A stretch of DNA of 64,000 nucleotides from Nitrospira japonica (GCA_020723105.1 DYJL01000001.1:198273-262272), one strand, 5' to 3'; positions 8,874 to 37,589 are shown, numbered from the stretch's first letter. Program-made: numbers and translations. Notes: generated by a model from the letters alone, not told the origin.

Positions 8874-8898
8874 GTCAAGCTGGCCAGCTTTAACTGTT

Positions 8899-14452: not shown

Positions 14453-14486
14453 TTTCAGCTTTCTATCTGGCCAGCTTCTTACTATT

Positions 14487-19304: not shown

Positions 19305-20435
19305 ATGAATAGCAGGGATACAAGGGACATTGTGATTGCGGTTGGTTTGCTTTCAGGGGTCGGGATCCTGATGGTTTTCAGCTCGACAGCTGTCATGTCG
19401 ATGCAGAGTAACGGGCGCGGGGCTGCCTATCTTTGGAAACACCTTTTTACTGTCTGCGTCGGAGCAGTTGTAATGCTCACGCTGTCAATGGGCGACTATA
19501 AAAAAGCCAGATCATGTGTTCCCCATCTGATCGCTGTATCATCACTGCTGTTGCTTCTTGTATTTGTCCCCGGGATCGGTATCTCCGCAAACGGGGCGCA
19601 GAGATGGATACGGGTATGGCCGACCACACTGACCTTTCAGCCCACAGAACTGCTAAAGCTGGTAATGGTCATTTCCCTCGCGGACTATATGGATAAATAC
19701 GTTTACAGGATGAAGGACTACAGGTACGGGATCTGTATTCCCATCGTCATATTGTTGGTGTTTCAGACGATCATCATGCTGCAGCCGGATTTTGGCGCGG
19801 TCATGAGTCTGGCAATACTTGCGATAGGCCTTTTAATGCTCGGTGGCGCCAGAATGAGATACTTAAGCGCTATGATACTGGCATCGATACCGGCAGTATA
19901 CATACTTATCAGGATCGCTCCATACAGGCTTAAACGGTTTACATGTTTTCTCGACCCATGGCAAGACTCTTTAGGCTGCGGATATCAGCTAATCCAGTCG
20001 CTCATCGCGATCAATAACGGAAAGATCCTTGGCATGGGTATTGGAAACAGCAAACAGAAGCTCGGATTCCTGCCGGAGACCCATACTGATTTTATATTTT
20101 CCATCATAGGCGAAGAATTCGGTCTTATAATAAGCTTGTGTGTGGTAGGTCTATTTGTCTGGCTCTTTATAAAAGGAATTAAGGTCGCCTCACGGACTGA
20201 TGATCAGTTCAGCTACTACCTTGCGATAGGACTCTCGCTGATGATCGGTGTCCAGGCCATGATAAACTTTGCCGTTACCATGGGATTGCTGCCTACAAAA
20301 GGCCTACCCCTGCCGTTTATCAGCTACGGTGGTTCAGCCCTTGTTGTCAATATGGCTGCTGCGGGCATTCTGATAAATATATCACGGCAGAATGAGAGGA
20401 GAAGTGTATATTCGAAAACAAGTTTCTCCTTATAA
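19305..20435 (+). CDS. FtsW/RodA/SpoVE (SEDS) family peptidoglycan polymerase
   Basis: About 10 TM segments. The block GAQRWIRVWPTTLTFQPTELLKLVMVI is typical of SEDS proteins. Confidence 0.75.
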   Translation: MNSRDTRDIVIAVGLLSGVGILMVFSSTAVMSMQSNGRGAAYLWKHLFTVCVGAVVMLTLSMGDYKKARSCVPHLIAVSSLLLLLVFVPGIGISANGAQRWIRVWPTTLTFQPTELLKLVMVISLADYMDKYVYRMKDYRYGICIPIVILLVFQTIIMLQPDFGAVMSLAILAIGLLMLGGARMRYLSAMILASIPAVYILIRIAPYRLKRFTCFLDPWQDSLGCGYQLIQSLIAINNGKILGMGIGNSKQKLGFLPETHTDFIFSIIGEEFGLIISLCVVGLFVWLFIKGIKVASRTDDQFSYYLAIGLSLMIGVQAMINFAVTMGLLPTKGLPLPFISYGGSALVVNMAAAGILINISRQNERRSVYSKTSFSL

Positions 20436-24451: not shown

Positions 24452-25081
24452 CGTTAAAACCCTCCAGCGAAGACCTGTCTATTAAATCATCATCCCCATC
24501 TTTGTACAGACCTTATAAATTGCTTTTTTACCACTATCTAATGAGAACTGTCAAATATGAAGGATTAGAATAAATTATTAATCTAAATTAGTACTATAAA
24601 ATTCATTCATCAGTCCAAGCACCATCAATTCTTCCAAATCGCATAAACATTGACACCGGAGCAGGGAATTATGGGCCGTTGACGGCTATAGAACTGCCGT
24701 CACTGAAAATCTGGCAGCAAAATTAATCTGGACAGCCTACCATTGCTGCTCTCGCTTTTTTTAAAAACCTCGGTAACCTGCACAATCGTTTCGGCAAAAA
24801 TAACCGAAATCCCCCCAATATCCTTCCATTAGGAAGTCTTTCCGCACTATCACCTCCCTTCAAAAGTAATACAAATACATAGCATTTAATTTTCAGTAGT
24901 TTTAACGAAAAGGTGTGACTGGACATAAGCCGTCATGCCCTTTTTGTCTTGAAGGGAGGTGAAACGTGATTGAAAGAATAATCATAACAATTCTGCTGAT
25001 TGTCTATGTGTATATAGGAATAAATCTTATGGAAACTGTCTACCAGATTTTAATAAAACTTAGAAAAAGGAGAAAACGGAA

Positions 25082-26584
25082 ATGGTTGATCAACCAGGTA
25101 ACAATACAGTAGCAGCGAGAGAATGCTTAAATAATTCAGAACTGTCATCAACCCTTTTGGGTCCTATTTTCAGGCTTCCCAAGGCAGGAGTTATCCGGCC
25201 CGGCATCAAAGCTTTAAAGAAAAGCTGTACTGCCGATGATCAGAAGATTTATAGCAGAATGCTTGAAGAAGGCGCTACATGGGATGAAATTGACCGCTCT
25301 CTTGGAACGGACAAGAATGGTAAATCGAAATTGATCCCTGAAAACGTCGATTACTTCACTATACGTCCGGAGGACTGTAAGAATTCTGATGACGCAAGAA
25401 GGCTTCATGACTTTTATGCCGATCCTGACGGGAAAATAAGAAGCCTTCCTGTCTGGTTCTCTATCAATGAATGGTATAACATCATCCCACACGGACTGAG
25501 AGCTTTCGGCAAAACGCAGGGAATCCGCTACCATAGCGATCTCATTGAAAAACAGGATGCTGATGGCAGAAAAGAGTTTACTCGTGTTTGCAGGTTCCCT
25601 CTTAACGTTGAGCCCGGAAAAAGGATTTACGGCGGTAGAAGATGCGGTGAAAGGCCGTGTGATCCCAATAATTGCCCTGAATACCAGTCCGGGAGCTGCA
25701 AATTCGGAGGGGTCATCTGCTGCCACATTCCCGGCGTCAAAGGTGTAGGAGTATGGCTTATACCGACAACATCATGGTATTCCCTATCAAACATCAAGAG
25801 CACGTTCGAAATTGTAGCAAACCTGACACGGGGAAAGATTGCAGGACTTGTTGAACCCTCTGCTGACTCTCCAAGCCGTTTTAAGACAGTGTTTCGTATC
25901 CGGAAGGTATCGGAGACTGTATCCATGATAGATCATAAATCAGGCAATCCGACAAGGGTTGAGCAGGATCTTATTCATCTGGACGTAGATATAGATCTGA
26001 CAGAGTTGGCTGTTTCTTATAACGGTCATAAACTGATCACAACCGGTTTCTCATCCGCAGCCTTGCTGAATGGCAAAAACAACGGAACAGGTTCCCATTC
26101 ATCGCTATTAAACAAACCATCGGATAATAGCATGGACAAGTCTGAAACTAATGCCACTACGGGATCAAAAGAAGATAAAAATCCTGAGCCGGGAAACACA
26201 AACAAGACACTTGGTGAGGATGCAGGAAAACTTTTTGGGCTGCTCGCTGCTAAATTCGATACAAATGAGGGAATTAAGGCTGAACTGGAAAGACTGACAA
26301 ACAGGAACAGCTTTTTCGAACTAACCGATAATGAGGCAAAGACAGCCATTGATGCTCTCACAAAGTCGGCCAAGAAGCAATGCGATCCGCCTTCAGATAA
26401 CGGCAATGAGCCGGATGAGGTAAAAGAACTTAAAACCATTCTCACGGCACTGTGTGAAGGGGAAGACGACATAGCGGTCAAGCTCAAGGAATTAACCGGC
26501 GTTGATTCATTTGAGAAGGTTACAAAAGAAATGGCAATAAGGGCCATTGAAAAAATGACTGTAAACACCCTGAATGACTTTTAA
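25082..26584 (+). CDS. Hypothetical 500-aa protein with a Cys-rich centre and a low-complexity Ser/Asn/Lys/Glu-rich C-terminal half
   Basis: Cys cluster CGERPCDPNNCPEYQSGSCKFGGVICCH. It is the first gene of a co-directional module with DUF736 and a Toprim primase. Confidence 0.5.
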   Translation: MVDQPGNNTVAARECLNNSELSSTLLGPIFRLPKAGVIRPGIKALKKSCTADDQKIYSRMLEEGATWDEIDRSLGTDKNGKSKLIPENVDYFTIRPEDCKNSDDARRLHDFYADPDGKIRSLPVWFSINEWYNIIPHGLRAFGKTQGIRYHSDLIEKQDADGRKEFTRVCRFPLNVEPGKRIYGGRRCGERPCDPNNCPEYQSGSCKFGGVICCHIPGVKGVGVWLIPTTSWYSLSNIKSTFEIVANLTRGKIAGLVEPSADSPSRFKTVFRIRKVSETVSMIDHKSGNPTRVEQDLIHLDVDIDLTELAVSYNGHKLITTGFSSAALLNGKNNGTGSHSSLLNKPSDNSMDKSETNATTGSKEDKNPEPGNTNKTLGEDAGKLFGLLAAKFDTNEGIKAELERLTNRNSFFELTDNEAKTAIDALTKSAKKQCDPPSDNGNEPDEVKELKTILTALCEGEDDIAVKLKELTGVDSFEKVTKEMAIRAIEKMTVNTLNDF

Positions 26585-26614
26585 AAACAATAATCAAAAG
26601 AAAGGAGACAAAAG

Positions 26615-26851
26615 ATGTCAAAACAAATCGGCGCATTATGGGTAAAGGAGTATACAAGAGACGGTGAACCGAGAAAGATGCTTTCCGGAACACTTGATAT
26701 CGGAGTTTTGGGAGAGATAGACATAGCCATTTTCCCAAACGACCAGAAAAAAGAATCCAAACACCCGGATTACCGTATTGTACTTGGGACCTCAAACGGA
26801 AAAGGTGAGTTCAAGGCCAGAGAAGAAAGATCAGACAAGAAACCTTTCTAA
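26615..26851 (+). CDS. DUF736-family protein (commonly carried on conjugative/integrative elements)
   Basis: IGALWVKEYTRDGEPRKMLSGTLDIGVLGEIDIAIFPNDQKKESKHPDYRIVLG matches the DUF736 pattern (IG.f.k....f.G.l......v.l.p...k...APDYRv). SD GAAAGGAGA upstream. Confidence 0.55.
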   Translation: MSKQIGALWVKEYTRDGEPRKMLSGTLDIGVLGEIDIAIFPNDQKKESKHPDYRIVLGTSNGKGEFKAREERSDKKPF

Positions 26852-27030
26852 GGTCCTTATCTACATCTACCAAAAATGGGGCGAGAGTTTCTCTTGCCCT
26901 TTTTTTTGCCTTAAGGAGGTAATACACAGGTAATAACTAACTATTTAGTAGAAATCCGAACGAAAAGGGCAGAGCAAAAGTAACATTATTTTGCCATGTC
27001 CTTTTTGTTTTCAAATATCATGGAGGTGAT

Positions 27031-28035
27031 ATGGAAAGGAAAATAATTGAAAAAGCAAAAAACATCAACTTAATGTCGTACATCGAGCTCGTGTTAGGGC
27101 TTGTTCCGCAAAGACGTGTATCCGGCGGCACTTTTTACTTCTCGCCGTTCAGGCAGGAGAGTGAAGCTTCATTGCATGTCTCGTTATTAAACGGGATCTG
27201 GCAGTGGTATGACCACGGGAGCGCAAACCGTGATGGCGGAGACACAGTTAAGTTTGTGCTCAAACTCAGGCAATGTTCTTTTAAGGAGGCAGTTGATGAT
27301 CTGCTCAGGTTTGACGGATCAAGCTGTGAGAATGAACAAACACAGCCTGTAAACAGGTCGAAGATTGACACTTCCCGGAATAAGATGAAAAAAATATTCT
27401 GGGCCAGAAAATTCTACAGCCGGCTGCCTAATAATAATGAAAGGCTGATAAGGAGGTACTTTACTGAAAGAAGATTACGATTTTATCCTGAACTGGGCTG
27501 TAAGGTGTATGTCCACTTCAAAGATCAGTTGAGCTACGTTACTTTTCCGCTTCCCAATCCTGAAAAACTCAGAGGGTTGGAGCTCAGGGAGATATGCGGT
27601 CTTGATAAAGAGATAGGTTTAACTGAAGAAAGAAAGAATCGTAAGAATTACGGCACAAAGACCTTGTGGGTATTTAAAAGAGACACATCCCGGATACTGG
27701 TTGCGGAATCAATACTTGATGCGCTTGCCGGAGAGGTCATTCTCAACGATTACAACATATCACTTGCAGCCTTAAATGGGGTAGGGCAGGTATCCCAGCT
27801 TAACCCTTTAATTCAAAGTATGAAGCCCCAAAAAATTGTTTTTGCTCCTGACAGGGACATGCCTGGCAGGGAAACTGAGTTAATCGCTAAAGAAATTTTC
27901 AAAAGAAATAACGTTGAGTATGAAGTTCTTGAGACAAAAGAGAAGGACTTGTTTAGGGCACTTCATTTAGGGAAAGGAGTAAACAATGCTTACGACAGCA
28001 AATCGCAAACTGAATATCTCAAAGAATGCTCTTGA
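27031..28035 (+). CDS. Primase-like protein: degenerate CHC2-type N-terminal domain plus C-terminal Toprim domain
   Basis: N-terminus ASLHVSLLNGIWQWYDHGSANRDGGDTVKFV resembles the DnaG zinc-ribbon region but lacks the Cys ligands. The C-terminus has Toprim-like E...DxD (ILVAESILDA ... FAPDRDMPG). Confidence 0.5.
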   Translation: MERKIIEKAKNINLMSYIELVLGLVPQRRVSGGTFYFSPFRQESEASLHVSLLNGIWQWYDHGSANRDGGDTVKFVLKLRQCSFKEAVDDLLRFDGSSCENEQTQPVNRSKIDTSRNKMKKIFWARKFYSRLPNNNERLIRRYFTERRLRFYPELGCKVYVHFKDQLSYVTFPLPNPEKLRGLELREICGLDKEIGLTEERKNRKNYGTKTLWVFKRDTSRILVAESILDALAGEVILNDYNISLAALNGVGQVSQLNPLIQSMKPQKIVFAPDRDMPGRETELIAKEIFKRNNVEYEVLETKEKDLFRALHLGKGVNNAYDSKSQTEYLKECS

Positions 28036-30073
28036 GGTATTAAGGAAGCGTTATCTTAAAAAGGATGACCATGGCAATCCGACGGAAACACCGGAAGATT
28101 TGTTCAGGCGTGTTGCAGAGAACATAGCTCATGCAGACAGCTTCTACGGGGCATCCCCTAAAGAAGTAACACAAACTGCAGAGACATTCTATGATCTTAT
28201 CATGAGCTTGCGGTTCTTACCGAACAGCCCTACGCTTATGAACGCAGGAAGGGAATTACAGCAGCTTTCAGCGTGTTTTGTATTGCCCGTCGGTGATTCG
28301 ATGGAGGAAATTTTCGAGGCTTTAAAGAAGGCCGCTCTGATTCATCAAAGCGGCGGAGGTACGGGATTTTCGTTCAGCAGGCTTCGTCCGAAAGACGATA
28401 TGGTTTCAACAACAAAGGGAAAGGCAAGTGGGCCTATATCTTTTATGGAGGTCTTTGATTCAGCAACGAATACTGTCAAACAGGGTGGGACCCGCAGGGG
28501 CGCAAACATGGGGATTTTGAGAGTGGATCATCAGGACATCTTGGAGTTCATCTCCTGCAAAGGCGAAGAGGGAAGGCTGCAAAATTTCAACATTTCTATA
28601 GCCATAACCAACAGTTTCATGCAGGCGCTAAAGGAAGAAAAGATGTACCGTCTCATAAACCCGCGCACAAAGAAAGTTGTTAAAGAGCTTTCGGCAAGAG
28701 AGGTATTCAACAGGATTGTTGATATGGCATGGAAAAACGGAGAGCCGGGGATTATCTTCATTGACAGGATCAATGAGAAAAATCCCACTCCTCATGCAGG
28801 TGAGATAGAAGCCACTAATCCATGCGGAGAACAGCCTCTTTTGCCATATGAGTCCTGTAATCTTGGTTCCATCAATCTTTCACTGATGGTTGATAGTGCC
28901 TCCGTAAACTGGAAGTTACTTGAGGATACTATAAAAACTGCGGTGCATTTTCTGGATAACGTCATAGACATGAACAAGTACCCACTGTCTCAGATAGAGA
29001 CCGTCACCAAACTCAACAGGAAGATCGGACTCGGGGTTATGGGATGGGCTGATATGCTTCTTAAAATGAGAATTAAGTATAGCTCAGATGAGGCAGTCAA
29101 GCTTGCTGAAAAGGTAATGAGTTTCATTCAGGCTGTAGCATATGATGCATCTGCTGAACTTGCAATGAAAAGAGGGGCGTTCCCCAACTGGAAGGGAAGC
29201 ATCCACAACGGAGATAACGGTAGAAAACTCAGAAATGCCTCAATCACAACCATTGCCCCTACGGGAAGCATCAGCATAATTGCTGGTTGCTCTTCAGGCA
29301 TTGAGCCTGTCTTTGCATGGCAGCATAAAAGCAAACAGGTGGATACGGAGTTTACATGGGAACATCCCATATGGGCGTTGTATAAGGATAAGGATTTACT
29401 TCCCGAGTACTTTGTTAAGGCTGACCAGATTCCAACCGAATGGCACGTCAAGATGCAGGCCGCTTTCCAGAGGAACACTGATAATGCCGTCTCAAAAACG
29501 GTAAATCTGCCTAACTCGGCGACCAGAGAGGATGTTGCAAAGACCTATCTGCTGGCGTATGAGTTTGGATGTAAAGGCATCACAGTCTACCGTGATGGAA
29601 GCCGGGAAGAACAGGTTTTGACAACTACAGACAGACAAATTGCAAAGAAAGGCAAGAGCGGGAAGGAGACCTTGCCTGAGGTGATTGATGAGAAAAGGGT
29701 TGTGGTTCCGACAAAAGAAGGTAAATATTACATCCATCTAAGCCATGTTAATGGAACGCCGAAAGAGATATTCGTCACTGTTCCTCCGATTGGCAAATCG
29801 AGGGCGTGGGTTGAATGTATCTCAAGGCTGATATCCATTGCTATGCGAGCCGGAGTTTCCTGCGAGGCTCTTATTGATCAGCTCTATAAGAGCTATTTGC
29901 AGTATGGAGACGTAACATCACCATTGCTGCATATCAATAAAGGTCTGACAAAGGCGCTTGAGTCATTAAACAGAAAGCCCAACTTTGAGATCACATGCAC
30001 TGACTGCGGCGGAGTAATGATTCTGGAAGAAGGATGTATGAAGTGCTACTCATGCGGCGCAAGCGCCTGCTGA
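27986..30073 (+). CDS. nrdJ: Class II (adenosylcobalamin-dependent) ribonucleotide reductase
   Basis: NPCGEQPL active-site motif. C-terminal zinc-ribbon CTDCGGVMILEEGCMKCYSCGASAC. The start overlaps the primase gene end by 50 nt. Confidence 0.85.
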   Translation: MLTTANRKLNISKNALEVLRKRYLKKDDHGNPTETPEDLFRRVAENIAHADSFYGASPKEVTQTAETFYDLIMSLRFLPNSPTLMNAGRELQQLSACFVLPVGDSMEEIFEALKKAALIHQSGGGTGFSFSRLRPKDDMVSTTKGKASGPISFMEVFDSATNTVKQGGTRRGANMGILRVDHQDILEFISCKGEEGRLQNFNISIAITNSFMQALKEEKMYRLINPRTKKVVKELSAREVFNRIVDMAWKNGEPGIIFIDRINEKNPTPHAGEIEATNPCGEQPLLPYESCNLGSINLSLMVDSASVNWKLLEDTIKTAVHFLDNVIDMNKYPLSQIETVTKLNRKIGLGVMGWADMLLKMRIKYSSDEAVKLAEKVMSFIQAVAYDASAELAMKRGAFPNWKGSIHNGDNGRKLRNASITTIAPTGSISIIAGCSSGIEPVFAWQHKSKQVDTEFTWEHPIWALYKDKDLLPEYFVKADQIPTEWHVKMQAAFQRNTDNAVSKTVNLPNSATREDVAKTYLLAYEFGCKGITVYRDGSREEQVLTTTDRQIAKKGKSGKETLPEVIDEKRVVVPTKEGKYYIHLSHVNGTPKEIFVTVPPIGKSRAWVECISRLISIAMRAGVSCEALIDQLYKSYLQYGDVTSPLLHINKGLTKALESLNRKPNFEITCTDCGGVMILEEGCMKCYSCGASAC

Positions 30074-30130
30074 GTCCGCACGATTCAAAGTAAGGGCGTA
30101 TGGGATTTCCTGTACGTCCTTTTTTGTTTT
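29904..30130. repeat. Left copy of a ~220-bp diverged direct repeat (nrdJ 3' end plus terminator)
   Basis: About 85% identical by eye to 35595..35806. Covers codons ...GDVTSPLLHINKGLTKALESLN..CTDCGG..CGASAC plus the terminator. Confidence 0.7.
30093..30126 (+). terminator. Rho-independent terminator after nrdJ
   Basis: AGGGCGTATGG-gattt-CCTGTACGTCCT stem (11 bp including three G·U pairs) followed by TTTTTTG. The same structure recurs after the orphan nrdJ fragment at about 35773..35813. Confidence 0.45.
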
Positions 30131-30253
30131 TCGAATAGCTTGAAATTGGTCGCATGAAAAGTAAATGACTTCCCCTTTTCATCAGATGATCCCTTTCATT
30201 ATTGAAAATTATTTGCAGCAATATTAGCATGAAGAAATCGTGAAAGTTTCCTC

Positions 30254-31174
30254 TTAAAGTCCTCTCCGTTTTCTTTTCGGGGGCGTATTTTTGGCCAACA
30301 CCTTCTTTGTTTTCCTTGCGCCTTTCTTTCGTAAAGTGTCTTTTGCAGATGACCTGCCTTTCGCGGAGGTTGCAGTCTTCCTGGTGTTTCGAGACGAAAT
30401 GGAAACAGCGCTCTCTGATGAGACCGATGAAGAAACCTCTAAATCATGTTCGAGCTCGATGCCGAATGTTTGGGACAAATTAGCTTCCTCAATGATCCTG
30501 GAGCTTTTCTTTGACGCCAGGGCCAGAAGTTTTTGCTTATGCTCCGAGATAGCCTGCCCTATCAGTTCGCCCATTTCCACGTTCCGCATTTTGAAAAACA
30601 ACGCTGGACTCTCATCGAGCCGCGCCCCTATACCATAAAGAGCTGCCGCCACGTGCTTACACATACCGGCCCAGTCAGGACAGGAGCAACTAAATTTGAT
30701 TTCCTTTGGCGACGGGAACATGCCTGAATCCTTATGAGTAAATATTTCTGCCATCGTTTTGGGAAAGCTCCCGTTGATGAGCTCTCGCAAAGATTCAAGC
30801 ATTCCCTGACATTGATTTATGATTGTCTGCCAAATATCTTTCTTTAGAGTTTTTATGCTGATGACCACTGAATAAGGGCTTGACTGTGATCCCTGGACAG
30901 ACGCCAGAACTTCCCCGGAGTCGATCTGCAGATCAAGTACCGCGCCGTGGCGGACGTAGCTCCGTCCCCTGCCGATGCGGTTATGGTAATCGGCGTATCG
31001 CTCAAGATTGCGGTTCCAGGCCTTGCCCCACCAGGTGCATGCAATAGCTGTGCCCTGAAGGATCACCGGCTTCAGGTTCGGGTTCTTCTTTGACAACTGC
31101 TTAAGTTTCTTCGCTGCCTTTGCCTTTTTCTCGGCTACGGATACATATCGAGGAAACCTATCCCAGTAAGACAT
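30254..31174 (-). CDS. SWIM zinc-finger domain protein with a basic Lys/Arg-rich C-terminal tail
   Basis: CSCPDWAGMCKHVAAALY fits the SWIM CxCx(n)CxH signature. The C-terminal about 60 aa are K/R/S/A-rich. Confidence 0.7.
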   Translation of the reverse strand: MSYWDRFPRYVSVAEKKAKAAKKLKQLSKKNPNLKPVILQGTAIACTWWGKAWNRNLERYADYHNRIGRGRSYVRHGAVLDLQIDSGEVLASVQGSQSSPYSVVISIKTLKKDIWQTIINQCQGMLESLRELINGSFPKTMAEIFTHKDSGMFPSPKEIKFSCSCPDWAGMCKHVAAALYGIGARLDESPALFFKMRNVEMGELIGQAISEHKQKLLALASKKSSRIIEEANLSQTFGIELEHDLEVSSSVSSESAVSISSRNTRKTATSAKGRSSAKDTLRKKGARKTKKVLAKNTPPKRKRRGL

Positions 31175-31274
31175 TTATTATGCTCCTTACAGATTTATTA
31201 ATGGCAACGACTCTCGTCTGTCTTGCGAACCGCAAAGTGCGCAAAGGAATAAACAGAGCTATTTTATCACAGGG

Positions 31275-33944
31275 TCATACAGACAGGGAAAAAAGTTCAA
31301 TCAGAGCATCATTGTCCATCTCCGTTATCCAGTCCTCTCCTACTGATTGAATCACTTCCTGAGCCAGTTTTATCTTGCCTTCTATCATCCTGTCGATCTT
31401 TTCTTCAATCGTACCTTCTGTGATGAATTTGTGGACGACAACGCCTTTTTTCTGGCCTATCCTAAAGGCCCTGTCGGTAGCCTGATTCTCTACCGCCGGG
31501 TTCCACCAGCGGTCAAAGTGTATGACATGATTTGCCGCCGTAAGGTTCAGACCCACTCCACCTGCTTTTAATGAGAGTACCATGAAAGGTACATAAGCGG
31601 CGTTCTGGAATTTATCGATCAAGCCTTTTCTCTTTGCCACGGCGGTGCCGCCGTGCAGGATGAGGCCTTCCCTTCCGAACACGATGTCAAGGAATGCCTT
31701 GAGTGGCTCGGTTATTTCCCTGAACTGAGTGAAGACCAGGACCTTTTCCCTCTTTCCAAGGATGGTTTCGCAGATCTCTCTAAGCCTGCCGAATTTGCCG
31801 CTTTCTTCTTCATCGTACCCGTCTGTTCCAAGATACTGATCAGGGTGATTGCAGAGCTGTTTGAATTTCATGAGCGAGGAGAGGACTATGCCTTTGCGCT
31901 GAATGCCCTCGGTCCGATCTATCGTCTCTTTAAGCTCACGGACCATTTCTTTATAGAGGAGAAGCTGCTTCTTGCTTAAAGATGCATACGTCTTCATTTC
32001 GACCTTTTCGGGCAGGTCTGAAATAACCGCCCTGTCGGTTTTCAGACGTCTCAGAATATAGGGGCTGATAATCCGCCTCAGTCTTGCGTAGCCATCGGGA
32101 GACTGATGCAGCGCCTTTGCGAATTTGACGAACTCTTGAGCGCCTCCGAGCAGTCCGGGGTTAATGAAGTCGAACAGGGACCAAAGATCGGACAGCCTGT
32201 TTTCAACCGGAGTGCCTGTCATGATTAGCCTGTTTTGGGCCTTGAGCCTTTTTATGCTCCGCGTCTGCTTTGCTCCGGGGTTCTTAATAGCTTGGGCTTC
32301 GTCGAGTATGATGTAGTTCCATTCACACTCATGAAGCCACTCATATCTCTGCGCAAGGGAGTAGGTCGTAATGACAAGATCGATTCCCTTCAGTGAATCA
32401 CGGTCATTCGGCTCTATCTTTCTTTCTGTGGGCGCTCCAGGATGCGCGATACAAAAAATCAGGTCCGGCGCAAAGCGGGTGAGCTCATTCTCCCAATTCG
32501 AAATGAGGGACGCGGGCACGACGAGCAGGCTCGGCAGTCGCGGGTTTTGCGATTTAATAATAGTGAGCAGCCCGATTACCTGGACGGTCTTTCCAAGCCC
32601 CATGTCATCCGCCAGACAGATACCAAGTCTTAAAGAATGGAGAAAGGCAAGCCAGTTCACTCCTTTCTGCTGATACGGCCTCAGGTCGGCCTTTAATGCC
32701 TTCCCCGTCTGAGTAAAATCTATCGACTCGGGGCTGCGGAGCTTTTTCAGCACAGTATCGAGCCATTTGCCGTTTGTCAATTCAATATCCTGCGACTGGT
32801 CGGAAACTCCCAAAGCGGATTTCGGATCCAACTGCATACGCATGGCGTCTCTGAAGCTGAATTCGCCTGCCGCAATCATATCACGCGCCTTCTCGTATGC
32901 ATCGAGGGTTTGCTTCAATTTCTCTGGATCAACCGCCACCCATCTGTTTTTGATCCAGGCGAGACCTTCCGATTTCAGGAGCAGCCGCCGGGCTTCATCT
33001 TCAGGGATGGCCGTGTCTCCAAGAAGGAGCTCTGGTCTAAAATCAAGGAGGGCGTCCATTCCGACGTGAGAAGGCTGCTTATCTCCGGCAGTTAAACGAA
33101 GTCTTACTCCCTGAGTGGGGCCTTTCCACCAGTTCGGGATCCTGCAAAGTATCCCGGCATTCTCATAGATTGAGGCCTCTTTTAAGAAGGTGTATGCCTC
33201 TTGCGTTGTCATTAAAAGAGGATGAAAGATTTCCCCGGATTCCACCAACTCGCTGATGAATCTGCTCTCCTTGGCAGCTAAGTGGACCGTTGAAAGCAGA
33301 TCCAGGAGCTTTTGATTGTCGCTGCCGAATTCTTCGAGAGCATATTTCAAAGGGACGTGTCTGGATGCGCCCCGGGTGTTGAGGCCTGTCGAATAGGTGG
33401 CCAGGAAGGCAAAAGGGGCATCGTCCTTTTTGCTCTCGACAAGATGGAAATAGACCCGACCTATAAGATGCACATTCGGACTGTAAGACCTGATGAACTC
33501 CTCGACAGTCCCTTTATAATGTCTGACACCCTCCGAAAAACATCTGTTAAGTCCACCCCATATGTTTTCAAGGAGGTCAGCATTCAGATACTCAGCGCCG
33601 GTCATGAGGGGCGCGCTGTCAATTACAGAGCAGGCTTCGTCGGATAAAAGCGAGACTGTGACGCTCTCCCTGATCTGCTCCATATCCGGCGTCATCCTTA
33701 TCTTTTCTGCGAACAGGCCTGCAAATGCACGCCAGAAATTGACCGAATCGGAAAGCTGAATAGATTTGTCACTGAACCCGATGAAAAGAAATGCTGAGGC
33801 CTTGTCAGCACTGAACCGCCGGAATATTTCCTGTTCCAATAACTGGCGACTCTTAGTGACCTGTTCTTCCGACGGCGACCATTCAAGCTGGACGTCGCCG
33901 CCCGGCATTATGACTGCGTGCAATTCCCTGTTCATAAGAGGCAT
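31275..33944 (-). CDS. SNF2-family (Snf2/Rad54-like) helicase/ATPase
   Basis: Motif I LADDMGLGKT and motif II ILDEAQAIKN. C-terminal helicase motifs LTAANHVIHFDRWWNPAVENQATDRAFRIGQKK. Confidence 0.85.
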   Translation of the reverse strand: MPLMNRELHAVIMPGGDVQLEWSPSEEQVTKSRQLLEQEIFRRFSADKASAFLFIGFSDKSIQLSDSVNFWRAFAGLFAEKIRMTPDMEQIRESVTVSLLSDEACSVIDSAPLMTGAEYLNADLLENIWGGLNRCFSEGVRHYKGTVEEFIRSYSPNVHLIGRVYFHLVESKKDDAPFAFLATYSTGLNTRGASRHVPLKYALEEFGSDNQKLLDLLSTVHLAAKESRFISELVESGEIFHPLLMTTQEAYTFLKEASIYENAGILCRIPNWWKGPTQGVRLRLTAGDKQPSHVGMDALLDFRPELLLGDTAIPEDEARRLLLKSEGLAWIKNRWVAVDPEKLKQTLDAYEKARDMIAAGEFSFRDAMRMQLDPKSALGVSDQSQDIELTNGKWLDTVLKKLRSPESIDFTQTGKALKADLRPYQQKGVNWLAFLHSLRLGICLADDMGLGKTVQVIGLLTIIKSQNPRLPSLLVVPASLISNWENELTRFAPDLIFCIAHPGAPTERKIEPNDRDSLKGIDLVITTYSLAQRYEWLHECEWNYIILDEAQAIKNPGAKQTRSIKRLKAQNRLIMTGTPVENRLSDLWSLFDFINPGLLGGAQEFVKFAKALHQSPDGYARLRRIISPYILRRLKTDRAVISDLPEKVEMKTYASLSKKQLLLYKEMVRELKETIDRTEGIQRKGIVLSSLMKFKQLCNHPDQYLGTDGYDEEESGKFGRLREICETILGKREKVLVFTQFREITEPLKAFLDIVFGREGLILHGGTAVAKRKGLIDKFQNAAYVPFMVLSLKAGGVGLNLTAANHVIHFDRWWNPAVENQATDRAFRIGQKKGVVVHKFITEGTIEEKIDRMIEGKIKLAQEVIQSVGEDWITEMDNDALIELFSLSV

Positions 33945-33945
33945 C

Positions 33946-35343
33946 TCAGAACATTTCCATCGCGGAGATCAATAAAACCTGCTCCCTCTTAGCCCTTTCT
34001 CTTAAAGCATCCGTATAGCCTGATCTTGAAAACAGCATGAAATACTCTTTCCTCTTCCCTTTGTTCAATTCCACAAGGGATGCCTTCCTCTTTAGATCGT
34101 CCAGGATATTGACTCCGACCGGCTTCTTGCTCCACTTGGCCTCGCCAAAATATATTCCTTTGTTTTCCTCATCGATGGCGATTATGTCAATCTCCTCATT
34201 CTTCTGCCACCACCTGCCTATTGAGGTAAACCTGATTTTGCCGTCCCTCATCATATCCAAACAATATCCCTTGCACACGTCCTCGAATACAAATGAAAGA
34301 TGTTGGTCAAAGGTTTCCTTTATCATCCGCAGCACTTCCCCTCCTTTGCCGATTTCGAGTCTGCTCCTGTTCGGAAAGACATATTTGAACCAGAATTCAA
34401 AGAACCGGTCGTGAATTCTATAAAGTCCCATCTTGCTCTTTTCGGGATATTTTTCGGTTACCGGCACCTCTTTTTCAACGAGCCTGAGACCACGAAGAAT
34501 TTCGAGATACCTTGAAAGAAGACTCTTTTCAAACGCGGTGTCGTTGATAATCTCCGAGAGCTTTCTTTTCCCCTGCGCGATTGATCTCAGAATGACAAAG
34601 TAGTTCCTCGGCTCCCTCAGCTCCTCGCGCAGCAGGTATTCCACCTCGTTATAAAGGAATGTCCCTCTGTCCAGTATAAGCTCTTCTATATTTTGGAATA
34701 TATCTTTTTCGGGATTGAGCTTTTCAAGATAAGCCGGGATCGTTCCGGTCACCCCGAAGATGGAAACGAGCTCATCTATTTCTTTATCGGGGAAGAACTC
34801 TTTCAGACAATTAAATCCCATCTCCCTGAGCTCGAGGGCTCCCGTTCTTCTTCCATAAAGGGGGGCCTTGTAGAAAAGCACCTCCCTCTCCATCATCCCG
34901 ATGCTTGAACCCATAAGGATGAGGAACAGCTTTGTGTCTTTGAAATACTGGTCAATCCCCTTCTGGAATATGGAGGAGATTGCCTTGTTTGAGTTCACAA
35001 GATAGGGGAATTCATCTATTACAATGAGCGTTCTCTCTTTTGTCCTTTTTTTCAGGTAGTCAAAGAACTGATACCAGTCTTTGAACCCTGTTTCTGCAAG
35101 GAAGGTGTCATCAAAGAAAGCGCCTACCTCTCTGCCGAGGAGTTTTAGTTGCTCTTGTTCGGCAACGCTGTCGGCAAGGAAGTATATGGCCGGCTTCTCT
35201 TTAATGAATTCCTGAACAAGTCTTGTCTTCCCAATCCTTCTTCTTCCGTAAATAGGGATAAACTGGAATTTGTCTTCCCTGTATAATCCTTCAAGGATTT
35301 TAAGCTCTTCTTTTCTGTCAACAAATTTCATTCCGCCTCTCAA
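33946..35343 (-). CDS. Arch_ATPase (PF01637-like) AAA ATPase with C-terminal DUF234-like domain
   Basis: FVDRKEELKILE...IPIYGRRRIGKT Walker A and LIVIDEFPYL Walker B. The C-terminal region looks like DUF234. The stop is 1 nt from the SNF2 start, suggesting an operon. Confidence 0.65.
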   Translation of the reverse strand: MRGGMKFVDRKEELKILEGLYREDKFQFIPIYGRRRIGKTRLVQEFIKEKPAIYFLADSVAEQEQLKLLGREVGAFFDDTFLAETGFKDWYQFFDYLKKRTKERTLIVIDEFPYLVNSNKAISSIFQKGIDQYFKDTKLFLILMGSSIGMMEREVLFYKAPLYGRRTGALELREMGFNCLKEFFPDKEIDELVSIFGVTGTIPAYLEKLNPEKDIFQNIEELILDRGTFLYNEVEYLLREELREPRNYFVILRSIAQGKRKLSEIINDTAFEKSLLSRYLEILRGLRLVEKEVPVTEKYPEKSKMGLYRIHDRFFEFWFKYVFPNRSRLEIGKGGEVLRMIKETFDQHLSFVFEDVCKGYCLDMMRDGKIRFTSIGRWWQKNEEIDIIAIDEENKGIYFGEAKWSKKPVGVNILDDLKRKASLVELNKGKRKEYFMLFSRSGYTDALRERAKREQVLLISAMEMF

Positions 35344-35571
35344 GTATAATCACGATTAGTATAATGTGGATTATACATAATATCGTGGTGCAATGCAATA
35401 TAAGGGGTTTTCTTTCGGAATGTCAGTATGACGGAAGTCCCGGTCGTTAAGGAGCGTGAAGAAATCGTGAAAGAAAATTATCAAAAACAATATAATTACG
35501 ACGAATAATATAGGAATAGGAAATGGGGCCAACTAAAAGACAGGTAATAATTATTTAGTATTTTCAGGCGC

Positions 35572-35763
35572 TTGCAAGGTTCCTTGGTTGAGAATGGAGA
35601 TGTAACGTCTTCTCTACTGCATATCAATAAATGCCTGTCAAAGGCTCTTGAGTCATTAAACCTGAAGCCTCATTATGAAATAACATGCACCGACTGCGGA
35701 GGGATAATGATTCTGGAAGAAGGATGTATGAAGTGTTACACATGCGGCGCGAGCGTCTGCTGA
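35572..35763 (+). pseudogene. Orphan 3' fragment of a class II RNR gene (nrdJ C-terminal zinc-ribbon)
   Basis: ...GDVTSSLLHINKCLSKALESLNLKPHYEITCTDCGGIMILEEGCMKCYTCGASVC is a close match to the nrdJ C-terminus at 29904..30073. No RNR-like sequence lies upstream of it. Confidence 0.7.
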
Positions 35764-35806
35764 AATTGAATTGAAGGGCGTATGGGAATTTCTGTACGTC
35801 CTTTTT
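35595..35806. repeat. Right copy of the ~220-bp diverged direct repeat
   Basis: See 29904..30130. Confidence 0.7.
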
Positions 35807-35967
35807 TTTGCTTTTAAAATGTATTCCTTGGAAGTTTGATTAACATTAGCGGGGTGCTGAGATAGGGATCATCAAAAATGGATAAATATGTAGAACATAA
35901 CCTATCAAACTCGAATACATTAAATTTACATCTTGCCCCCCCTCTGAATATTGCAACGGTTTCTTCC

Positions 35968-37077
35968 TTAGAACCAGATCTTCACCGGGCAATGGTCCGA
36001 GATGTTGTTCTTCCAATCCTTCTCGATTTCCTTAAACCGTTTGTGGTCAAATGGTAACTTCGATTTCTCCGGCGCAGTAGAACCTGGCTGTGAAGTAACG
36101 GGGTCTTCTTCAAAATGGATCAGGGTTGCTGGAAGGATATTGCCAGATTTTCCTGCCTTATAAGATAAACCTCTGCGTTCAATATGCGGTTTTTTCTTTT
36201 CATCATTCTGTACTTCCTTTTTAATCCTTTGTGCTAATGCCTTTGATACCAAAATAAAATCGATTTGTGAAACGCGATTCTTATCGCGCCAGAAATATGT
36301 CCATGCGTCATCCTCTGCTCTATATTCCTGAATGACATTACTTAGATAAGGAGATTCGATTAAAGGCTTTATATATGGACTATACGGAGTATCATTAAAG
36401 TCCCCAACAACAGCATAAAGTGCAGAATCATGTTCACCTTTGAAACGATCTTCTATTTGTTCAGAAACAGTTTTTGCCTGTAATTTCCTCTGCCCATGAC
36501 TTTCACTGATGCGGACATGGTATTTTGCATTTGATTCATTTTTCTTTTTTATTACCAGTTTTGATTTCAAATGATTGACGAAGAGAGTAAGTTTTTCACC
36601 ACCGTGCAATATAAAGGTCACTTCAAGACAATCACGGCTAAATATCCTTTTTCCGTTCTTGGTTTCATCAATATGACTTCTTATATCTTTAATAGGAAAC
36701 GTGGATAGGACTCCAACATCTATATTCCTCGGGTCGTACCCGTCAATCAATAATGAATACTGATAATAGCTTTTGAGGTAGTTTTCATTAAACGCGCGTA
36801 TCGCATCCATGTTTTCTACTTCCTGAAGGCATAGTATATCAGGCAACTGCCCGTCTGGTTCTTTCAATGCCTTTACAGCTATCTTTCGTCTCTCTGGTTC
36901 CCAGATGATAAAATTATTTGGCAAATATTTACCAAATGCCTTTTCAGGAATATATCCCATCGTTGCTGCTTCTGATGCTTCAACCAGAGATTTTTTCGAC
37001 ATGTCGCCAGGGTAGGTCTTGCTGAACTTATACCTAAGAAAAAAATTGTTGGCGTTGAAAGTTGCTAAAGATGGCAT
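35968..37077 (-). CDS. Endonuclease/exonuclease/phosphatase (EEP) family protein
   Basis: ILCLQEVEN near the N-terminus, GDFNDTPYSP, and C-terminal SDHCPV are EEP signature blocks. Confidence 0.7.
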   Translation of the reverse strand: MPSLATFNANNFFLRYKFSKTYPGDMSKKSLVEASEAATMGYIPEKAFGKYLPNNFIIWEPERRKIAVKALKEPDGQLPDILCLQEVENMDAIRAFNENYLKSYYQYSLLIDGYDPRNIDVGVLSTFPIKDIRSHIDETKNGKRIFSRDCLEVTFILHGGEKLTLFVNHLKSKLVIKKKNESNAKYHVRISESHGQRKLQAKTVSEQIEDRFKGEHDSALYAVVGDFNDTPYSPYIKPLIESPYLSNVIQEYRAEDDAWTYFWRDKNRVSQIDFILVSKALAQRIKKEVQNDEKKKPHIERRGLSYKAGKSGNILPATLIHFEEDPVTSQPGSTAPEKSKLPFDHKRFKEIEKDWKNNISDHCPVKIWF

Positions 37078-37545
37078 GGTTTTCCCCTCCTTTATTTTCC
37101 GTTGATTGCTTAGATAATTAAATCAGGAACTAACTATTATTTCAATACTTTTTTATGTTCTTCTTTGATCCGGCACCGACCAATCCCGTACAGATATCAA
37201 AACATCTACCGGATGATGAGTTTGCAGTGTTGAGAGACAACGCAAATCTTTTTGCGTTGACACTTCCTTGAATAATCTTAAAGATTCAAGCTTAAATATT
37301 TTACAATTTTCATTGGAGTGATTTTAATAGTGCTGGGAGAGGATTTGATTATAAAAAAGAGGTTGTGAAAATCAATCTCAAAATTGTGCCCATTTTGTGC
37401 CCGTCAGACCAAAATTAATGCCAATTTCTGCCAACTCTATCCAACATTAAAAAATAGAGTAAGCCCTTGAAATAAGAGCTTAATAGCCTTATTTCAAGGG
37501 CTTGTAAGATTGGCTTAAAAACCGGTTTTTCGGTCTCAAAATCCA

Positions 37546-37589
37546 CTGAGGGCAACCTCGTGGGGGTTCAAGTCCCCCCTCCGGCACTC
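37546..37589 (+). other. tRNA 3'-half-like fragment: variable-arm hairpin, T-arm GGGGG-TTCAAGT-CCCCC and 3' acceptor strand, with no matching 5' half
   Basis: GAGG-GCAA-CCTC hairpin, then GGGGGTTCAAGTCCCCC (canonical T-loop), then CTCCGGC-A. The complementary GCCGGAG is absent upstream and no CCA is encoded. Sits in a 1-kb gene-free AT-rich gap. Confidence 0.3.

What the first reader, a model, noticed from the sequence alone, without database searches (positions are those of the whole stretch)
29904..35806. A 5.5-kb cassette inserted into the 3' end of nrdJ, bounded by ~220-bp diverged direct repeats, with an orphan nrdJ C-terminal fragment downstream
The last ~55 codons of nrdJ (…GDVTS.LLHINK…CTDCGG.MILEEGCMKCY.CGAS.C), its stop codon and its terminator hairpin occur twice: at 29904-30130 and again at 35595-35806, about 85% identical by eye.

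The second copy is a stand-alone 63-codon ORF (35572..35763) with nothing RNR-like upstream. Between the copies lie three minus-strand genes: SWIM zinc-finger protein, SNF2 helicase and Arch_ATPase/DUF234.

This is the signature of an element that integrates into the 3' end of a protein-coding gene and carries a replacement 3' end. The same strategy is familiar from tRNA/tmRNA-targeting islands. Unusually, no integrase or recombinase is present inside. The ~15% repeat divergence argues the event is old, or that the two ends come from different nrdJ alleles.
Basis: seen in the sequence. Interest (0 to 1): 0.75.

Follow-up and report, generated by a model that had tools for sequence, protein, structure and literature searches.

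The report
Displaced nrdJ tail beside inserted genes
A 5.5-kb block of three accessory genes sits between the intact end of a B12-dependent ribonucleotide reductase gene and a leftover copy of that end from a different allele; this is most likely a scar of horizontal gene import by recombination, not an active mobile element.

Summary
Window 29901-30125 (last ~57 codons of nrdJ, stop, terminator) recurs at 35591-35807 (80-83% identity, E=2e-56). Three minus-strand genes lie between: SWIM, SNF2/DUF3670 helicase and ATPase_2/DUF234. No recombinase was found in the 64 kb.

- **Not a duplication in place.** The orphan tail groups with the alleles of two other lineages (81% bootstrap). It pairs with the resident tail in only 13% of replicates. 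Most of its differences are synonymous and all six zinc-ribbon cysteines are kept.
- **The cassette is lineage-specific.** Six related lineages carry the same 5.3-kb nrdJ operon; none has the cassette or an orphan. The cassette is GC3-rich and composite.
- **The tail recombines elsewhere.** One relative has a clean replacement of the last ~470 nt of nrdJ plus an extra gene.

My preferred explanation (about 0.5) is import of a foreign nrdJ tail, terminator and accessory genes. One crossover would be homologous and the other illegitimate, as in the C-terminal displacement described for rhs and T6SS loci. The main rival (about 0.25) is a decayed integrative island without an integrase. A significant inner 21-bp direct repeat that hugs the three genes fits the rival and remains unexplained.

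No empty site or second occurrence could be found. Interest is moderate.

The parts
24855..30125 (+). Conserved 5.3-kb operon-like module. Genes: 48-aa membrane ORF (24966-25112), Gp3-like protein (25082-26584), DUF736 (26615-26851), CHC2/Toprim primase-like protein (27031-28035) and nrdJ.
   Evidence: 74-82% nt identity to L082, L083/84/85, L086 and L178. Homology starts at about 24855 and ends at the terminator, and the flanks are unrelated in every locus. Pfam.
27986..30073 (+). Intact class II (B12-dependent) ribonucleotide reductase gene nrdJ, 695 aa.
   Evidence: Pfam Ribonuc_red_lgC, lgN and TSCPD. TIGR02504 694.7 bits, above its cutoff. 100% coverage against 83-85% identical homologues.
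29901..30073 (+). Left copy of the repeat: the functional nrdJ tail, i.e. the cysteine-rich zinc-ribbon domain with six Cys.
   Evidence: The role of this domain in turnover is taken from PMC5704485.
30092..30121 (+). Intrinsic terminator of the nrdJ operon; part of the left repeat.
30126..30225 (.). AT-rich spacer 'a' (GC 0.32) with no similarity to any fetched locus.
30226..30246 (+). Inner 21-bp direct repeat, left copy: AGCATGAAGAAATCGTGAAAG. It lies 7 nt beyond the SWIM stop codon.
   Evidence: 20/21 identical to 35453-35473. These are the only two matches in the 64 kb even with 3 mismatches allowed. 0 of 300 and 0 of 100 shuffles reach this.
30254..31174 (-). SWIM zinc-finger protein, 306 aa.
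   Evidence: PF04434. Co-conserved with the SNF2 gene in the related metagenome loci compared.
31275..33944 (-). SNF2-family helicase with an N-terminal DUF3670 domain, 889 aa.
   Evidence: Pfam. The nearest NCBIfam model, SCO1167/SCO6262 helicase, is below its cutoff. PADLOC ZorD, DpdE and DrmD hits cover mainly the helicase region of the protein.
33946..35343 (-). ATPase_2/DUF234 ATPase with an ArsR-type HTH, 465 aa.
   Evidence: Pfam. PADLOC candidate PDC-S27, E=9e-47. Not linked to the SWIM-SNF2 pair in any other locus.
35397..35426 (-). Best sigma-70-like promoter match upstream of the ATPase gene (consensus match only).
35453..35473 (+). Inner 21-bp direct repeat, right copy: AGCGTGAAGAAATCGTGAAAG. 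It lies 110 nt upstream of the ATPase start codon.
35474..35590 (.). AT-rich spacer 'b' (GC 0.32). Its right end is the junction with the orphan tail.
35591..35763 (+). Orphan nrdJ tail (right copy), inside ORF 35572-35763. It is a displaced relic of a different nrdJ allele.
35773..35804 (+). Intact terminator hairpin of the orphan copy.
35968..37077 (-). Endonuclease/exonuclease/phosphatase-family gene, convergent with the orphan. This is the right flank, with near-core composition (GC3 0.37).
   Evidence: Closest homologue 84% aa, in a different context.

Best explanation
This is a scar of horizontal import by recombination, a 'C-terminal displacement' of a housekeeping gene.

A DNA segment from a related lineage entered the cell. 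It carried the distal part of that lineage's nrdJ, its terminator, and the accessory genes lying downstream (the SWIM-SNF2 pair plus the DUF234 ATPase). Its left end recombined homologously within nrdJ or further upstream in the conserved 5.3-kb operon. Its right end was joined illegitimately inside the resident nrdJ, at or next to the shared heptamer ATGGAGA (35594-35600).

The result is an nrdJ that is still complete, because it now reads into the imported tail and terminator. The resident last ~57 codons and terminator were pushed 5.7 kb downstream. There they sit as a promoter-less, probably untranslated relic.

**Shown:** the repeat and its sharp ends; intact nrdJ; the allelic (not paralogous) relation of the two tails; lineage-specific and compositionally foreign cargo; no recombinase detected; inter-lineage mosaicism of the same operon, including a clean tail replacement in a relative.

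**Inferred:** which tail is the incoming one; the position of the homologous crossover; the illegitimate nature of the right junction.
For: 1. **The two tails are different alleles.** winL vs winR is 83% identical, while each is 86% identical to L082 and L086. In the NJ tree the orphan groups with L082+L086 in 407/500 bootstraps; winL+winR group in 66/500.
2. **The orphan diverged under purifying selection and was orphaned fairly recently.** Against L082 it has 16 synonymous and 7 non-synonymous codon differences, and 2 of the 7 lie at the junction. All six Cys and the terminator are intact.
3. **The right end of the repeat coincides with the end of module homology.** This is the point where the whole module stops matching every relative, namely the terminator T-run. 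That is expected if both copies are ends of two versions of the same operon.
4. **The operon recombines between lineages.** Identity rankings switch along it. In L083 the last ~470 nt of nrdJ drop from 83-89% to 58-69% against the window (59-74% against L082 and L086), while the 38-nt terminator is 95% identical. A 141-aa gene has been added between the stop codon and the terminator. The L082-L086 tail is 92-95% identical against 82-88% upstream.
5. **The region downstream of the operon is a variable spot in relatives.** It holds toxin-antitoxin pairs in L174-177, three extra genes before tRNA-Leu in L083, and tRNA genes in L178, L086 and (by eye) L002.
6. **No recombinase was found, and there is little room for one.** Pfam found no integrase or transposase domain in the cassette or in the ORFs scanned across the 64 kb, and the non-coding stretches inside the cassette are only 2-248 nt.
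7. **The mechanism has precedent.** It has been proposed for orphaned 3' regions of rhs genes and for T6SS effector loci, via homology-facilitated illegitimate recombination (PMC5361080 and references therein; PMC3240628).
Against: - No donor, no empty site and no closer relative (more than 85% nrdJ identity) could be retrieved. The direction and the crossover points are therefore untested.
- The tail phylogeny does not say which copy is resident.
- The significant inner 21-bp direct repeat that tightly flanks the three genes is not predicted by this model. It needs an extra, earlier event in the donor, or a regulatory role.
- Homology-facilitated illegitimate recombination is rare, and it has not been documented in Nitrospirota.
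- A 7-bp identity at the junction fits a recombinase overlap region just as well as a microhomology.
Confidence: 0.5

Rival explanations
1. A degenerate or cis-mobilisable site-specific integrative island; this is the first reader's model. A circular element carrying a surrogate nrdJ tail and terminator in its attP integrated into the nrdJ tail through a recombinase. That recombinase has since been lost or is supplied in trans. The core would be at ATGGAGA. The 21-bp inner repeats, each holding tandem GTGAArGAAA-like half-sites, would be arm-type binding sites about 120 nt and 325 nt from the core. Alternatively they are the att core of a nested 5.2-kb insertion.
For: - Flanking direct repeats, with the target gene restored by the left copy.
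- A significant inner 21-bp direct repeat placed symmetrically just inside both ends.
- Foreign composition of the cargo.
- Cargo of a type common in islands: an SNF2 helicase and the PADLOC candidate PDC-S27 ATPase.
- In the closest EEP-containing relative, a 440-aa tyrosine integrase lies on the equivalent side of the EEP gene. This shows that integrase-borne elements occur in that neighbourhood in related genomes.
Against: - No recombinase domain was found in the cassette or elsewhere in the 64 kb, and there is no pseudogene remnant or space for one.
- None of 87 nrdJ loci examined (80 of them across diverse phyla), nor the five same-clade loci fetched afterwards, has a second tail.
- No relatives of the Gp3-like protein, the DUF234 ATPase or the nrdJ tail of this clade were found in viral contigs, and only distant SNF2 hits were found on plasmids.
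- The cassette is composite rather than a coherent element.
- The L167 integrase locus has no nrdJ fragment and no other synteny with the window.
Confidence: 0.25
2. A remnant of a second copy of the nrdJ module. Two related versions of the 5.3-kb module, or of a larger element carrying it, once lay in tandem or near-tandem. A deletion then removed everything of the second copy except its last ~220 bp, fusing it to accessory genes.
For: - The module occurs with unrelated flanks in every lineage.
- It has phage- or plasmid-like genes: Gp3-like, DUF736 and a primase.
- It has atypical GC3 (0.43-0.51) relative to housekeeping genes. It may therefore itself be, or have been, mobile.
- The orphan is a bona fide allele from another lineage.
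Against: - It needs two events, acquisition of a second module and then a precise large deletion, instead of one.
- No other trace of a second module was found in the window: the blastn search of 29700-30400 found only the tail repeat and the 21-bp repeat, and the tBLASTn search with the last 74 aa of NrdJ found only the resident tail and the orphan.
- No relative has two copies.
Confidence: 0.12
3. A local tandem duplication of the nrdJ end followed by divergence and later insertion of genes. Alternatively, a metagenome assembly chimera.
For: For the duplication: the two copies are direct repeats in the same orientation, 5.7 kb apart. For the chimera: the source is probably a metagenome-derived contig, since its relatives are all MAGs or metagenome contigs.
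Against: - **Duplication:** the copies are not each other's closest relatives. The divergence pattern is that of functional alleles.
- **Chimera:** a misjoin at a shared k-mer would make one hybrid tail, not two tails separated by 5.5 kb. The cassette-to-orphan junction at 35590/35591 has no homology that could mislead an assembler. An independent Logan contig reproduces the orphan-EEP side and breaks exactly at the shared 31-mer.
Confidence: 0.05

Closest known systems
C-terminal displacement and orphan 3' modules at rhs, cdiA and T6SS effector loci. The proposed mechanism is homology-facilitated illegitimate recombination (Jackson et al. 2009 as cited in PMC5361080; Kirchberger et al. 2017, PMC5361080).
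   Same: A full-length gene is followed downstream by an orphaned 3' fragment of the same gene. The fragment comes from a different allele and begins abruptly inside the conserved coding region. New DNA lies between them. No recombinase is needed. Clean replacements by ordinary homologous recombination occur in relatives; here that is L083.
   Different: The gene is a housekeeping enzyme (class II RNR), not a polymorphic toxin. There is one orphan, not an array. The cargo is a helicase pair plus an ATPase, not immunity genes. There is no obvious selective reason to swap the tail itself.
Genomic islands, ICEs and IMEs that integrate into the 3' end of tRNA, tmRNA or protein-coding genes and carry a replacement 3' end (for example the streptococcal ICE/IME integration sites reviewed in PMC4701971 and PMC5704250). 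Their integrase-less derivatives, the cis-mobilisable elements (CIMEs), are included from my own knowledge.
   Same: Direct repeats bound the insert. The target gene is kept intact by the copy adjoining the gene body. The cargo is foreign.
   Different: No integrase, excisionase or relaxase. The repeats are 220 bp at about 82% identity rather than a short identical core within a conserved att. No recurrence at this target was found in any other genome examined.
Homology-facilitated illegitimate recombination during natural transformation or conjugation (PMC3240628; de Vries and Wackernagel 2002 and Meier and Wackernagel 2003, as cited in PMC5361080).
   Same: One homologous anchor plus one illegitimate join at a few bases of microhomology. 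Foreign DNA is inserted next to the anchor.
   Different: This is known from laboratory crosses. Here it is only inferred from the end product, and the donor is unknown.
The bacterial SWIM-protein + SNF2/DUF3670-helicase gene pair. The YwqB/YwqA and Rv2102/HelZ examples come from my own knowledge and were not tested here.
   Same: Same two-gene architecture and domain content. The pair is conserved as a unit in the related metagenome loci compared.
   Different: The function of the pair is unknown. Here it is joined to a DUF234 ATPase, which none of the related loci has.

Membership tests
Site-specific integrative island (GI/ICE/IME/CIME) targeting a gene 3' end | Insert bounded by direct repeats derived from the target (attL/attR) | tested here: met
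   29901-30125 vs 35591-35807, E=2e-56. The repeats are long and about 18% diverged, with only 7 identical bases at the 5' boundary.
Site-specific integrative island (GI/ICE/IME/CIME) targeting a gene 3' end | Recombinase (tyrosine or serine integrase, or DDE enzyme) encoded at one end, or a cognate one demonstrably available in trans | tested here: not met
   Pfam found no recombinase domain in the three cassette genes or in any ORF of at least 110 aa scanned in the 64-kb window. The rest of the genome could not be examined.
Site-specific integrative island (GI/ICE/IME/CIME) targeting a gene 3' end | Target gene reading frame restored by an element-borne surrogate 3' end | tested here: met
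   nrdJ is full length (695 aa against 693 in its closest homologue). It has all six tail cysteines and its own terminator.
Site-specific integrative island (GI/ICE/IME/CIME) targeting a gene 3' end | Same target occupied by related elements in other genomes, and empty sites in close relatives | tested here: not met
   No second tail in 87 nrdJ loci or in five further clade loci. A true empty site (nrdJ followed by EEP) could not be found, because no relative shares the right flank.
C-terminal displacement by recombination (rhs/T6SS-type orphan 3' ends) | Intact gene followed by a 5'-truncated orphan of its 3' end that starts abruptly within conserved coding sequence | tested here: met
   Homology begins at about 35585-35591 with unrelated AT-rich DNA upstream.
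C-terminal displacement by recombination (rhs/T6SS-type orphan 3' ends) | Orphan and resident ends are distinct alleles of horizontal origin, not local paralogues | tested here: met
   The orphan groups with L082/L086 in 81% of bootstraps. The two window copies pair in 13%.
C-terminal displacement by recombination (rhs/T6SS-type orphan 3' ends) | Independent evidence of allelic 3'-end exchange at the same gene in relatives | tested here: met
   L083 has a mosaic tail (58-69% identity to the window, against 83-89% upstream) with a conserved terminator and an added gene. The L082/L086 tail is unusually similar.
C-terminal displacement by recombination (rhs/T6SS-type orphan 3' ends) | Illegitimate (non-site-specific) right junction, with donor configuration nrdJ-terminator-cargo | not testable with these tools
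Tandem or segmental duplication | Copies are each other's closest relatives | tested here: not met
Known anti-phage systems with SNF2 helicases (Zorya ZorD, DISARM DrmD, Dpd DpdE) | Full-length match above the family cutoff, and presence of the partner genes | tested here: not met
   NCBIfam ZorD 302 bits against a cutoff of 1500; DrmD 116 against 950; DpdE 43 against 500. The PADLOC hits cover mainly the helicase region of the protein. No ZorABC, DrmABC or Dpd genes were recognised in the window.
Class II ribonucleotide reductase NrdJ with a cysteine-rich C-terminal domain | NrdJ family model above its cutoff, and six C-terminal cysteines | tested here: met
   TIGR02504 694.7 bits, cutoff 400. 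The tail reads C-x2-C-x10-C-x2-C-x2-C-x4-C in both copies. The domain is described in PMC5704485.

The most novel reading that the evidence does not exclude
The zinc-ribbon tail of this nrdJ operon is a recurrent entry point for accessory or defence genes in Thermodesulfovibrionia-like Nitrospirota. Entry would occur in one of two ways. (a) A family of small islands without an integrase carries a surrogate nrdJ tail and is mobilised in trans, with the 21-bp repeats as recombinase sites. (b) The conserved, phage-like 5.3-kb operon serves as the homology anchor for a systematic 'tail-swap plus cargo' exchange. Short stand-alone proteins ending in an NrdJ-type cysteine tail exist in metagenomes (P0244; P0250 in L180; P0241 on a 36.5-kb contig). 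They could be further orphans of this kind.
Probability: 0.15. Interest if true: 0.6.

Novelty: new member of a known kind. Interest (0 to 1): 0.38.

Why it matters
If the recombinational reading is right, 'C-terminal displacement' is not confined to polymorphic toxin genes. This is the process known from those genes, in which an imported allele tail arrives with new downstream genes and leaves the old tail as an orphan. Here it would also act at an essential housekeeping gene, whose conserved sequence serves as the landing pad for foreign cargo.

It also gives a practical warning. Direct repeats made of a gene's 3' end are not sufficient to call an integrative element.

If the rival is right instead, nrdJ would be a new protein-gene attachment site, and the island a minimal element without an integrase. 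In either case the biological consequence here is modest: the reductase stays intact and the orphan is most likely inert.

Tried and rejected
- **Empty-site search through the right flank.** The closest EEP homologue (P0122, 84% aa; loci L167-L173) has no synteny with the window on either side and no nrdJ fragment. It is followed by a tyrosine integrase. This gave no empty site.
- **Exact-protein look-ups.** The window's nrdJ, SNF2 and DUF234 proteins are not on record. Only EEP gave a hit, a 1.9-kb Logan contig.
- **Word-index protein search with the 63-aa orphan.** It returned no candidates at all, so that search was wasted.
- **Exhaustive phmmer search with the orphan.** It gave 13 hits, including short stand-alone proteins. 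Two contexts were retrievable but too short to interpret (L179, 548 nt; L180, 2.2 kb).
- **Viral contigs.** No close relatives of the Gp3-like protein or the DUF234 ATPase, and only 28-31% matches to the nrdJ tail.
- **Plasmid database.** Only distant SNF2 similarity.
- **Rfam.** Nothing in 24.5-36.2 kb.
- **tRNA-Leu remnant.** tRNA-Leu follows the operon in L178, and in L083 after three extra genes. No remnant of it was found in the window.
- **Deciding which tail is resident.** Both tails are equally distant from L082 and L086, and the GC3 difference (0.51 against 0.46 over 57 codons) is too small to use.
- **Inner 21-bp repeat as a dispersed or structured element.** It has only two copies in the window and none in 173 loci, and it does not fold.
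- **Literature.** A full-text search for nrdJ as an integration target listed no paper among its top-ranked results that contains the word nrdJ.

Full report
**1.

The last ~57 codons of nrdJ, its stop codon and its terminator occur twice in direct orientation.
- The repeat finder reports 29901-30073 vs 35591-35763 (83%) and 30083-30125 vs 35765-35807 (86%).
- A blastn self-comparison joins them into one 225-nt hit. It has 80.4% identity, one 8-nt gap just after the stop codon, and E=1.9e-56.
- Similarity begins abruptly at about 29898/35585 (..AGnATGGAGA) and ends at the terminator T-run.
- Both hairpins are intact and strongly stable.

The left copy is the in-frame end of a complete class II ribonucleotide reductase: 695 aa, with TIGR02504 at 694.7 bits against a cutoff of 400. 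The right copy lies in a 63-codon ORF. That ORF starts at TTG, I see no Shine-Dalgarno-like sequence in the bases just upstream, and its first ~7 codons are unrelated to nrdJ.

The 5.46 kb between the copies holds three minus-strand genes:
- a SWIM protein;
- an SNF2/DUF3670 helicase;
- an ATPase_2/DUF234/HTH_5 ATPase.

An independent Logan contig (L001) is identical to 35706-37564. It breaks one base into the only 31-nt exact stretch the two copies share. That is what a k=31 graph does when both copies are present in the reads. A chimeric assembly is therefore unlikely.

**2.

The window is chromosomal DNA of a low-GC bacterium.
- It carries FtsW, DivIC, BioB/BioW, ThrRS, IF3, L20 and PheST.
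- The nearest nrdJ relatives are labelled Thermodesulfovibrio/Nitrospirota MAGs, or have no source name.

nrdJ is the last gene of a 5.3-kb operon-like module (24855-30125). The module comprises a 48-aa membrane ORF, a Gp3-like protein (PF18897), DUF736, a CHC2/Toprim primase-like protein, and nrdJ, which overlaps the primase gene by 50 nt.

The same module occurs elsewhere at 74-82% nt identity in L082, L083/84/85, L086 and L178, and at about 69% in L002 and L174-177. DNA homology starts and stops at the same two points every time. The flanks are completely different in every lineage.

**3. The insert is lineage-specific and foreign**

None of those six lineages has the SWIM/SNF2/ATPase genes or a second nrdJ tail within up to 10 kb downstream. 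The same is true of the 80 more distant nrdJ loci.

| Region | GC3 |
|---|---|
| Cassette genes | 0.55-0.58 |
| nrdJ module | 0.43-0.51 |
| EEP gene | 0.37 |
| thrS, pheST, miaB | 0.23-0.35 |

The cassette is also composite. In the related metagenome loci compared, the conserved unit is only the SWIM-SNF2 pair (window 30260-33937).
- The closest copies are 82-87% nt identical.
- They always lack the DUF234 ATPase.
- They sit in unrelated, often island-like contexts, such as a HigB-like (Gp49) toxin-antidote pair or a DUF6079 protein.
- Two copies that are 98% identical have different flanks.

**4. The two tails are different alleles**

Over the shared segment, the window's left and right copies are 83% identical. 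Each is 86% identical to L082 and L086, which are 91% identical to each other.
- In an NJ tree of eight tails, the orphan joins L082+L086 in 407 of 500 bootstraps.
- The two window copies pair in only 66 of 500.
- The orphan shares the amino-acid states S, I, T and V with L082 and L086 where the resident tail has T, V, S and A.
- Against L082, the orphan's differences are mostly synonymous: 16 against 7, with two of the seven at the junction.
- All six cysteines of the C-terminal zinc-binding domain are retained.

That domain is needed for catalytic turnover in class II RNRs (PMC5704485). This explains why any viable rearrangement must leave a complete tail on the gene.

An in-place duplication followed by decay is therefore rejected. 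The orphan was part of a working nrdJ of another lineage until fairly recently.

**5. How it probably arose**

Two observations point to recombination rather than site-specific integration.

First, the nrdJ operon is a mosaic of inter-lineage exchange.
- The ranking of relatives changes along the operon.
- The L082/L086 tails are 92-95% identical, against 82-88% upstream.
- In L083 the last ~470 nt of nrdJ fall from 83-89% to 58-69% identity against the window (59-74% against L082 and L086).
- In L083 the 38-nt terminator remains 95% identical to the window's, and a 141-aa gene has appeared between the stop codon and the terminator.

L083 therefore shows a clean tail-plus-cargo replacement at the same place in a relative.

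Second, Pfam found no recombinase domain in the cassette or anywhere in the 64 kb. The cassette also has no space for a decayed one.

The simplest single event is import of a fragment 'nrdJ distal part - terminator - accessory genes'. It would involve a homologous crossover in the operon and an illegitimate join inside the resident nrdJ, at or beside ATGGAGA. This is the homology-facilitated illegitimate recombination proposed for orphaned 3' regions of rhs genes and T6SS effector loci (PMC5361080; PMC3240628). The common right-hand limit of the repeat and of module homology (the terminator) follows naturally. I give this explanation about 0.5.

**6. What does not fit, and the rivals**

A 21-bp direct repeat (AGCRTGAAGAAATCGTGAAAG; 30226-30246 and 35453-35473; 20/21 identical) hugs the three genes.
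- The left copy is 7 nt past the SWIM stop codon. The right copy is 110 nt upstream of the ATPase start.
- It occurs nowhere else in the window, even with three mismatches allowed.
- No shuffle reproduces it.
- It does not fold, and it is absent from the 173 loci held at that point.

The repeat could be any of three things:
- the att core of an earlier, nested 5.2-kb insertion in the donor;
- arm-type sites of a lost recombinase;
- a regulatory site.

It is the best argument for the integrative or cis-mobilisable island model, which I keep at about 0.25. Also in that model's favour, the closest EEP-bearing relative has a tyrosine integrase on the equivalent side of EEP. However, it has no nrdJ fragment or other shared sequence.

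A remnant of a second module copy gets about 0.12. Duplication or assembly artefact together get about 0.05. Both are less parsimonious or are contradicted.

**7. What could not be done**

No genome closer than 85% nrdJ identity was retrievable, and no locus sharing the right flank. So there is no empty site, no donor, and no polarity for the event.

The exhaustive protein search did reveal short stand-alone proteins ending in an NrdJ-type cysteine tail: P0242, P0244, P0245 and P0250. It also returned a 105-aa tail of this very clade (P0241) on a 36.5-kb contig. Their contexts were too short or could not be fetched. They are the obvious lead for testing recurrence.

**8. Verdict**

The finding is real and correctly described. 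Its interpretation is half right: it is an insertion, and the two tails are two alleles. The specific claim of an integrative element with a surrogate 3' end is unproven, and the data do not favour it.

The structure is best filed as a new example, at a housekeeping gene, of recombinational C-terminal displacement with cargo gain. Interest is moderate (0.38). The functional consequence is small, since nrdJ is intact and the orphan is most likely inert. The SWIM-SNF2 pair and the DUF234 ATPase are accessory genes of unknown, possibly defence-related, function.

Noticed in passing
window 24855-30125; also L082, L083-85, L086, L174-178, L002: nrdJ is the last gene of a conserved five-ORF module: a small membrane ORF, a Gp3-like protein (the family of the phiC31 recombination directionality factor), DUF736, a CHC2/Toprim primase-like protein and nrdJ. 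This is a phage- or plasmid-like replication set next to what may be the cell's RNR. The module is found with unrelated flanks in every lineage. Several assemblies (L086, L174, L175, L178) break only about 0.4-0.65 kb upstream of it. Whether the module is itself mobile is open.
   Followed up: partly
L083 11600-12562 (also L084, L085): In this relative the last ~470 nt of nrdJ are only 58-69% identical to the window (59-74% to L082 and L086), against 83-89% upstream. A 141-aa gene with no Pfam hit sits between the stop codon and a terminator that is 95% identical to the window's. This is an independent, clean replacement of the nrdJ tail together with new cargo.
   Followed up: yes
L178 5929-6017; L083 14932-15020; L002 about 4370-4437; L086 5560-5635: tRNA-Leu(UAA) lies about 300 nt downstream of nrdJ in L178, and after three extra genes in L083. 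In L002 the contig ends inside what looks by eye like the 3' part of the same tRNA; ARAGORN did not call it. L086 has tRNA-Ala on the opposite strand. The ancestral neighbour of the operon may be a tRNA gene, a classical island target. No remnant of it exists in the window.
   Followed up: partly
window 30226-30246 and 35453-35473: A 21-bp direct repeat (20/21 identical) tightly brackets the SWIM-SNF2-ATPase genes, nested inside the 220-bp nrdJ-tail repeats. It is statistically significant and unexplained. The right copy contains a tandem GTGAAGAAA/GTGAAAGAAA motif.
   Followed up: partly
L167 6347-8309 (also L168-L172): In the closest relative of the EEP gene (84% aa, Hainich groundwater metagenomes), EEP is followed by a 74-aa ORF and a 440-aa tyrosine integrase. 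These lie on the side that corresponds to the orphan and cassette in the window. No other sequence is shared.
   Followed up: partly
P0242, P0244 (L179), P0245, P0250 (L180 1353-1580), P0241: Short stand-alone predicted proteins (75-121 aa) end in an NrdJ-type C-x2-C...C-x2-C-x2-C cysteine tail. In L180 the ORF is preceded by two opposite-strand genes, not by nrdJ. They may be further orphan nrdJ tails, or a free-standing small zinc-ribbon protein family.
   Followed up: partly
window 5509-17167: An AAA_5 ATPase gene is followed by four long ORFs (698, 698, 830 and 699 aa) and a 193-aa ORF. None has a Pfam hit. All are on the plus strand, and the four long ORFs and the ATPase have GC3 of about 0.49-0.52, well above the housekeeping genes. 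Whether the four long ORFs are paralogues was not checked. This may be another acquired block.
   Followed up: no
L089 7556-13297 vs L090 7558-13298: A 5.7-kb segment containing the SWIM-SNF2 pair is 98% identical between two peat or wetland metagenome contigs whose sequences differ completely beyond it. In most of the closest loci the pair is GC-richer than its flanks. This suggests the pair moves horizontally as a unit.
   Followed up: partly
window 19305-20435: The FtsW/RodA-family gene has GC3 0.55, far above neighbouring genes (rSAM 0.40, M50 0.42) and housekeeping genes (about 0.3). L082 also has an unrelated FtsW plus a transpeptidase just upstream of its nrdJ module.
   Followed up: no
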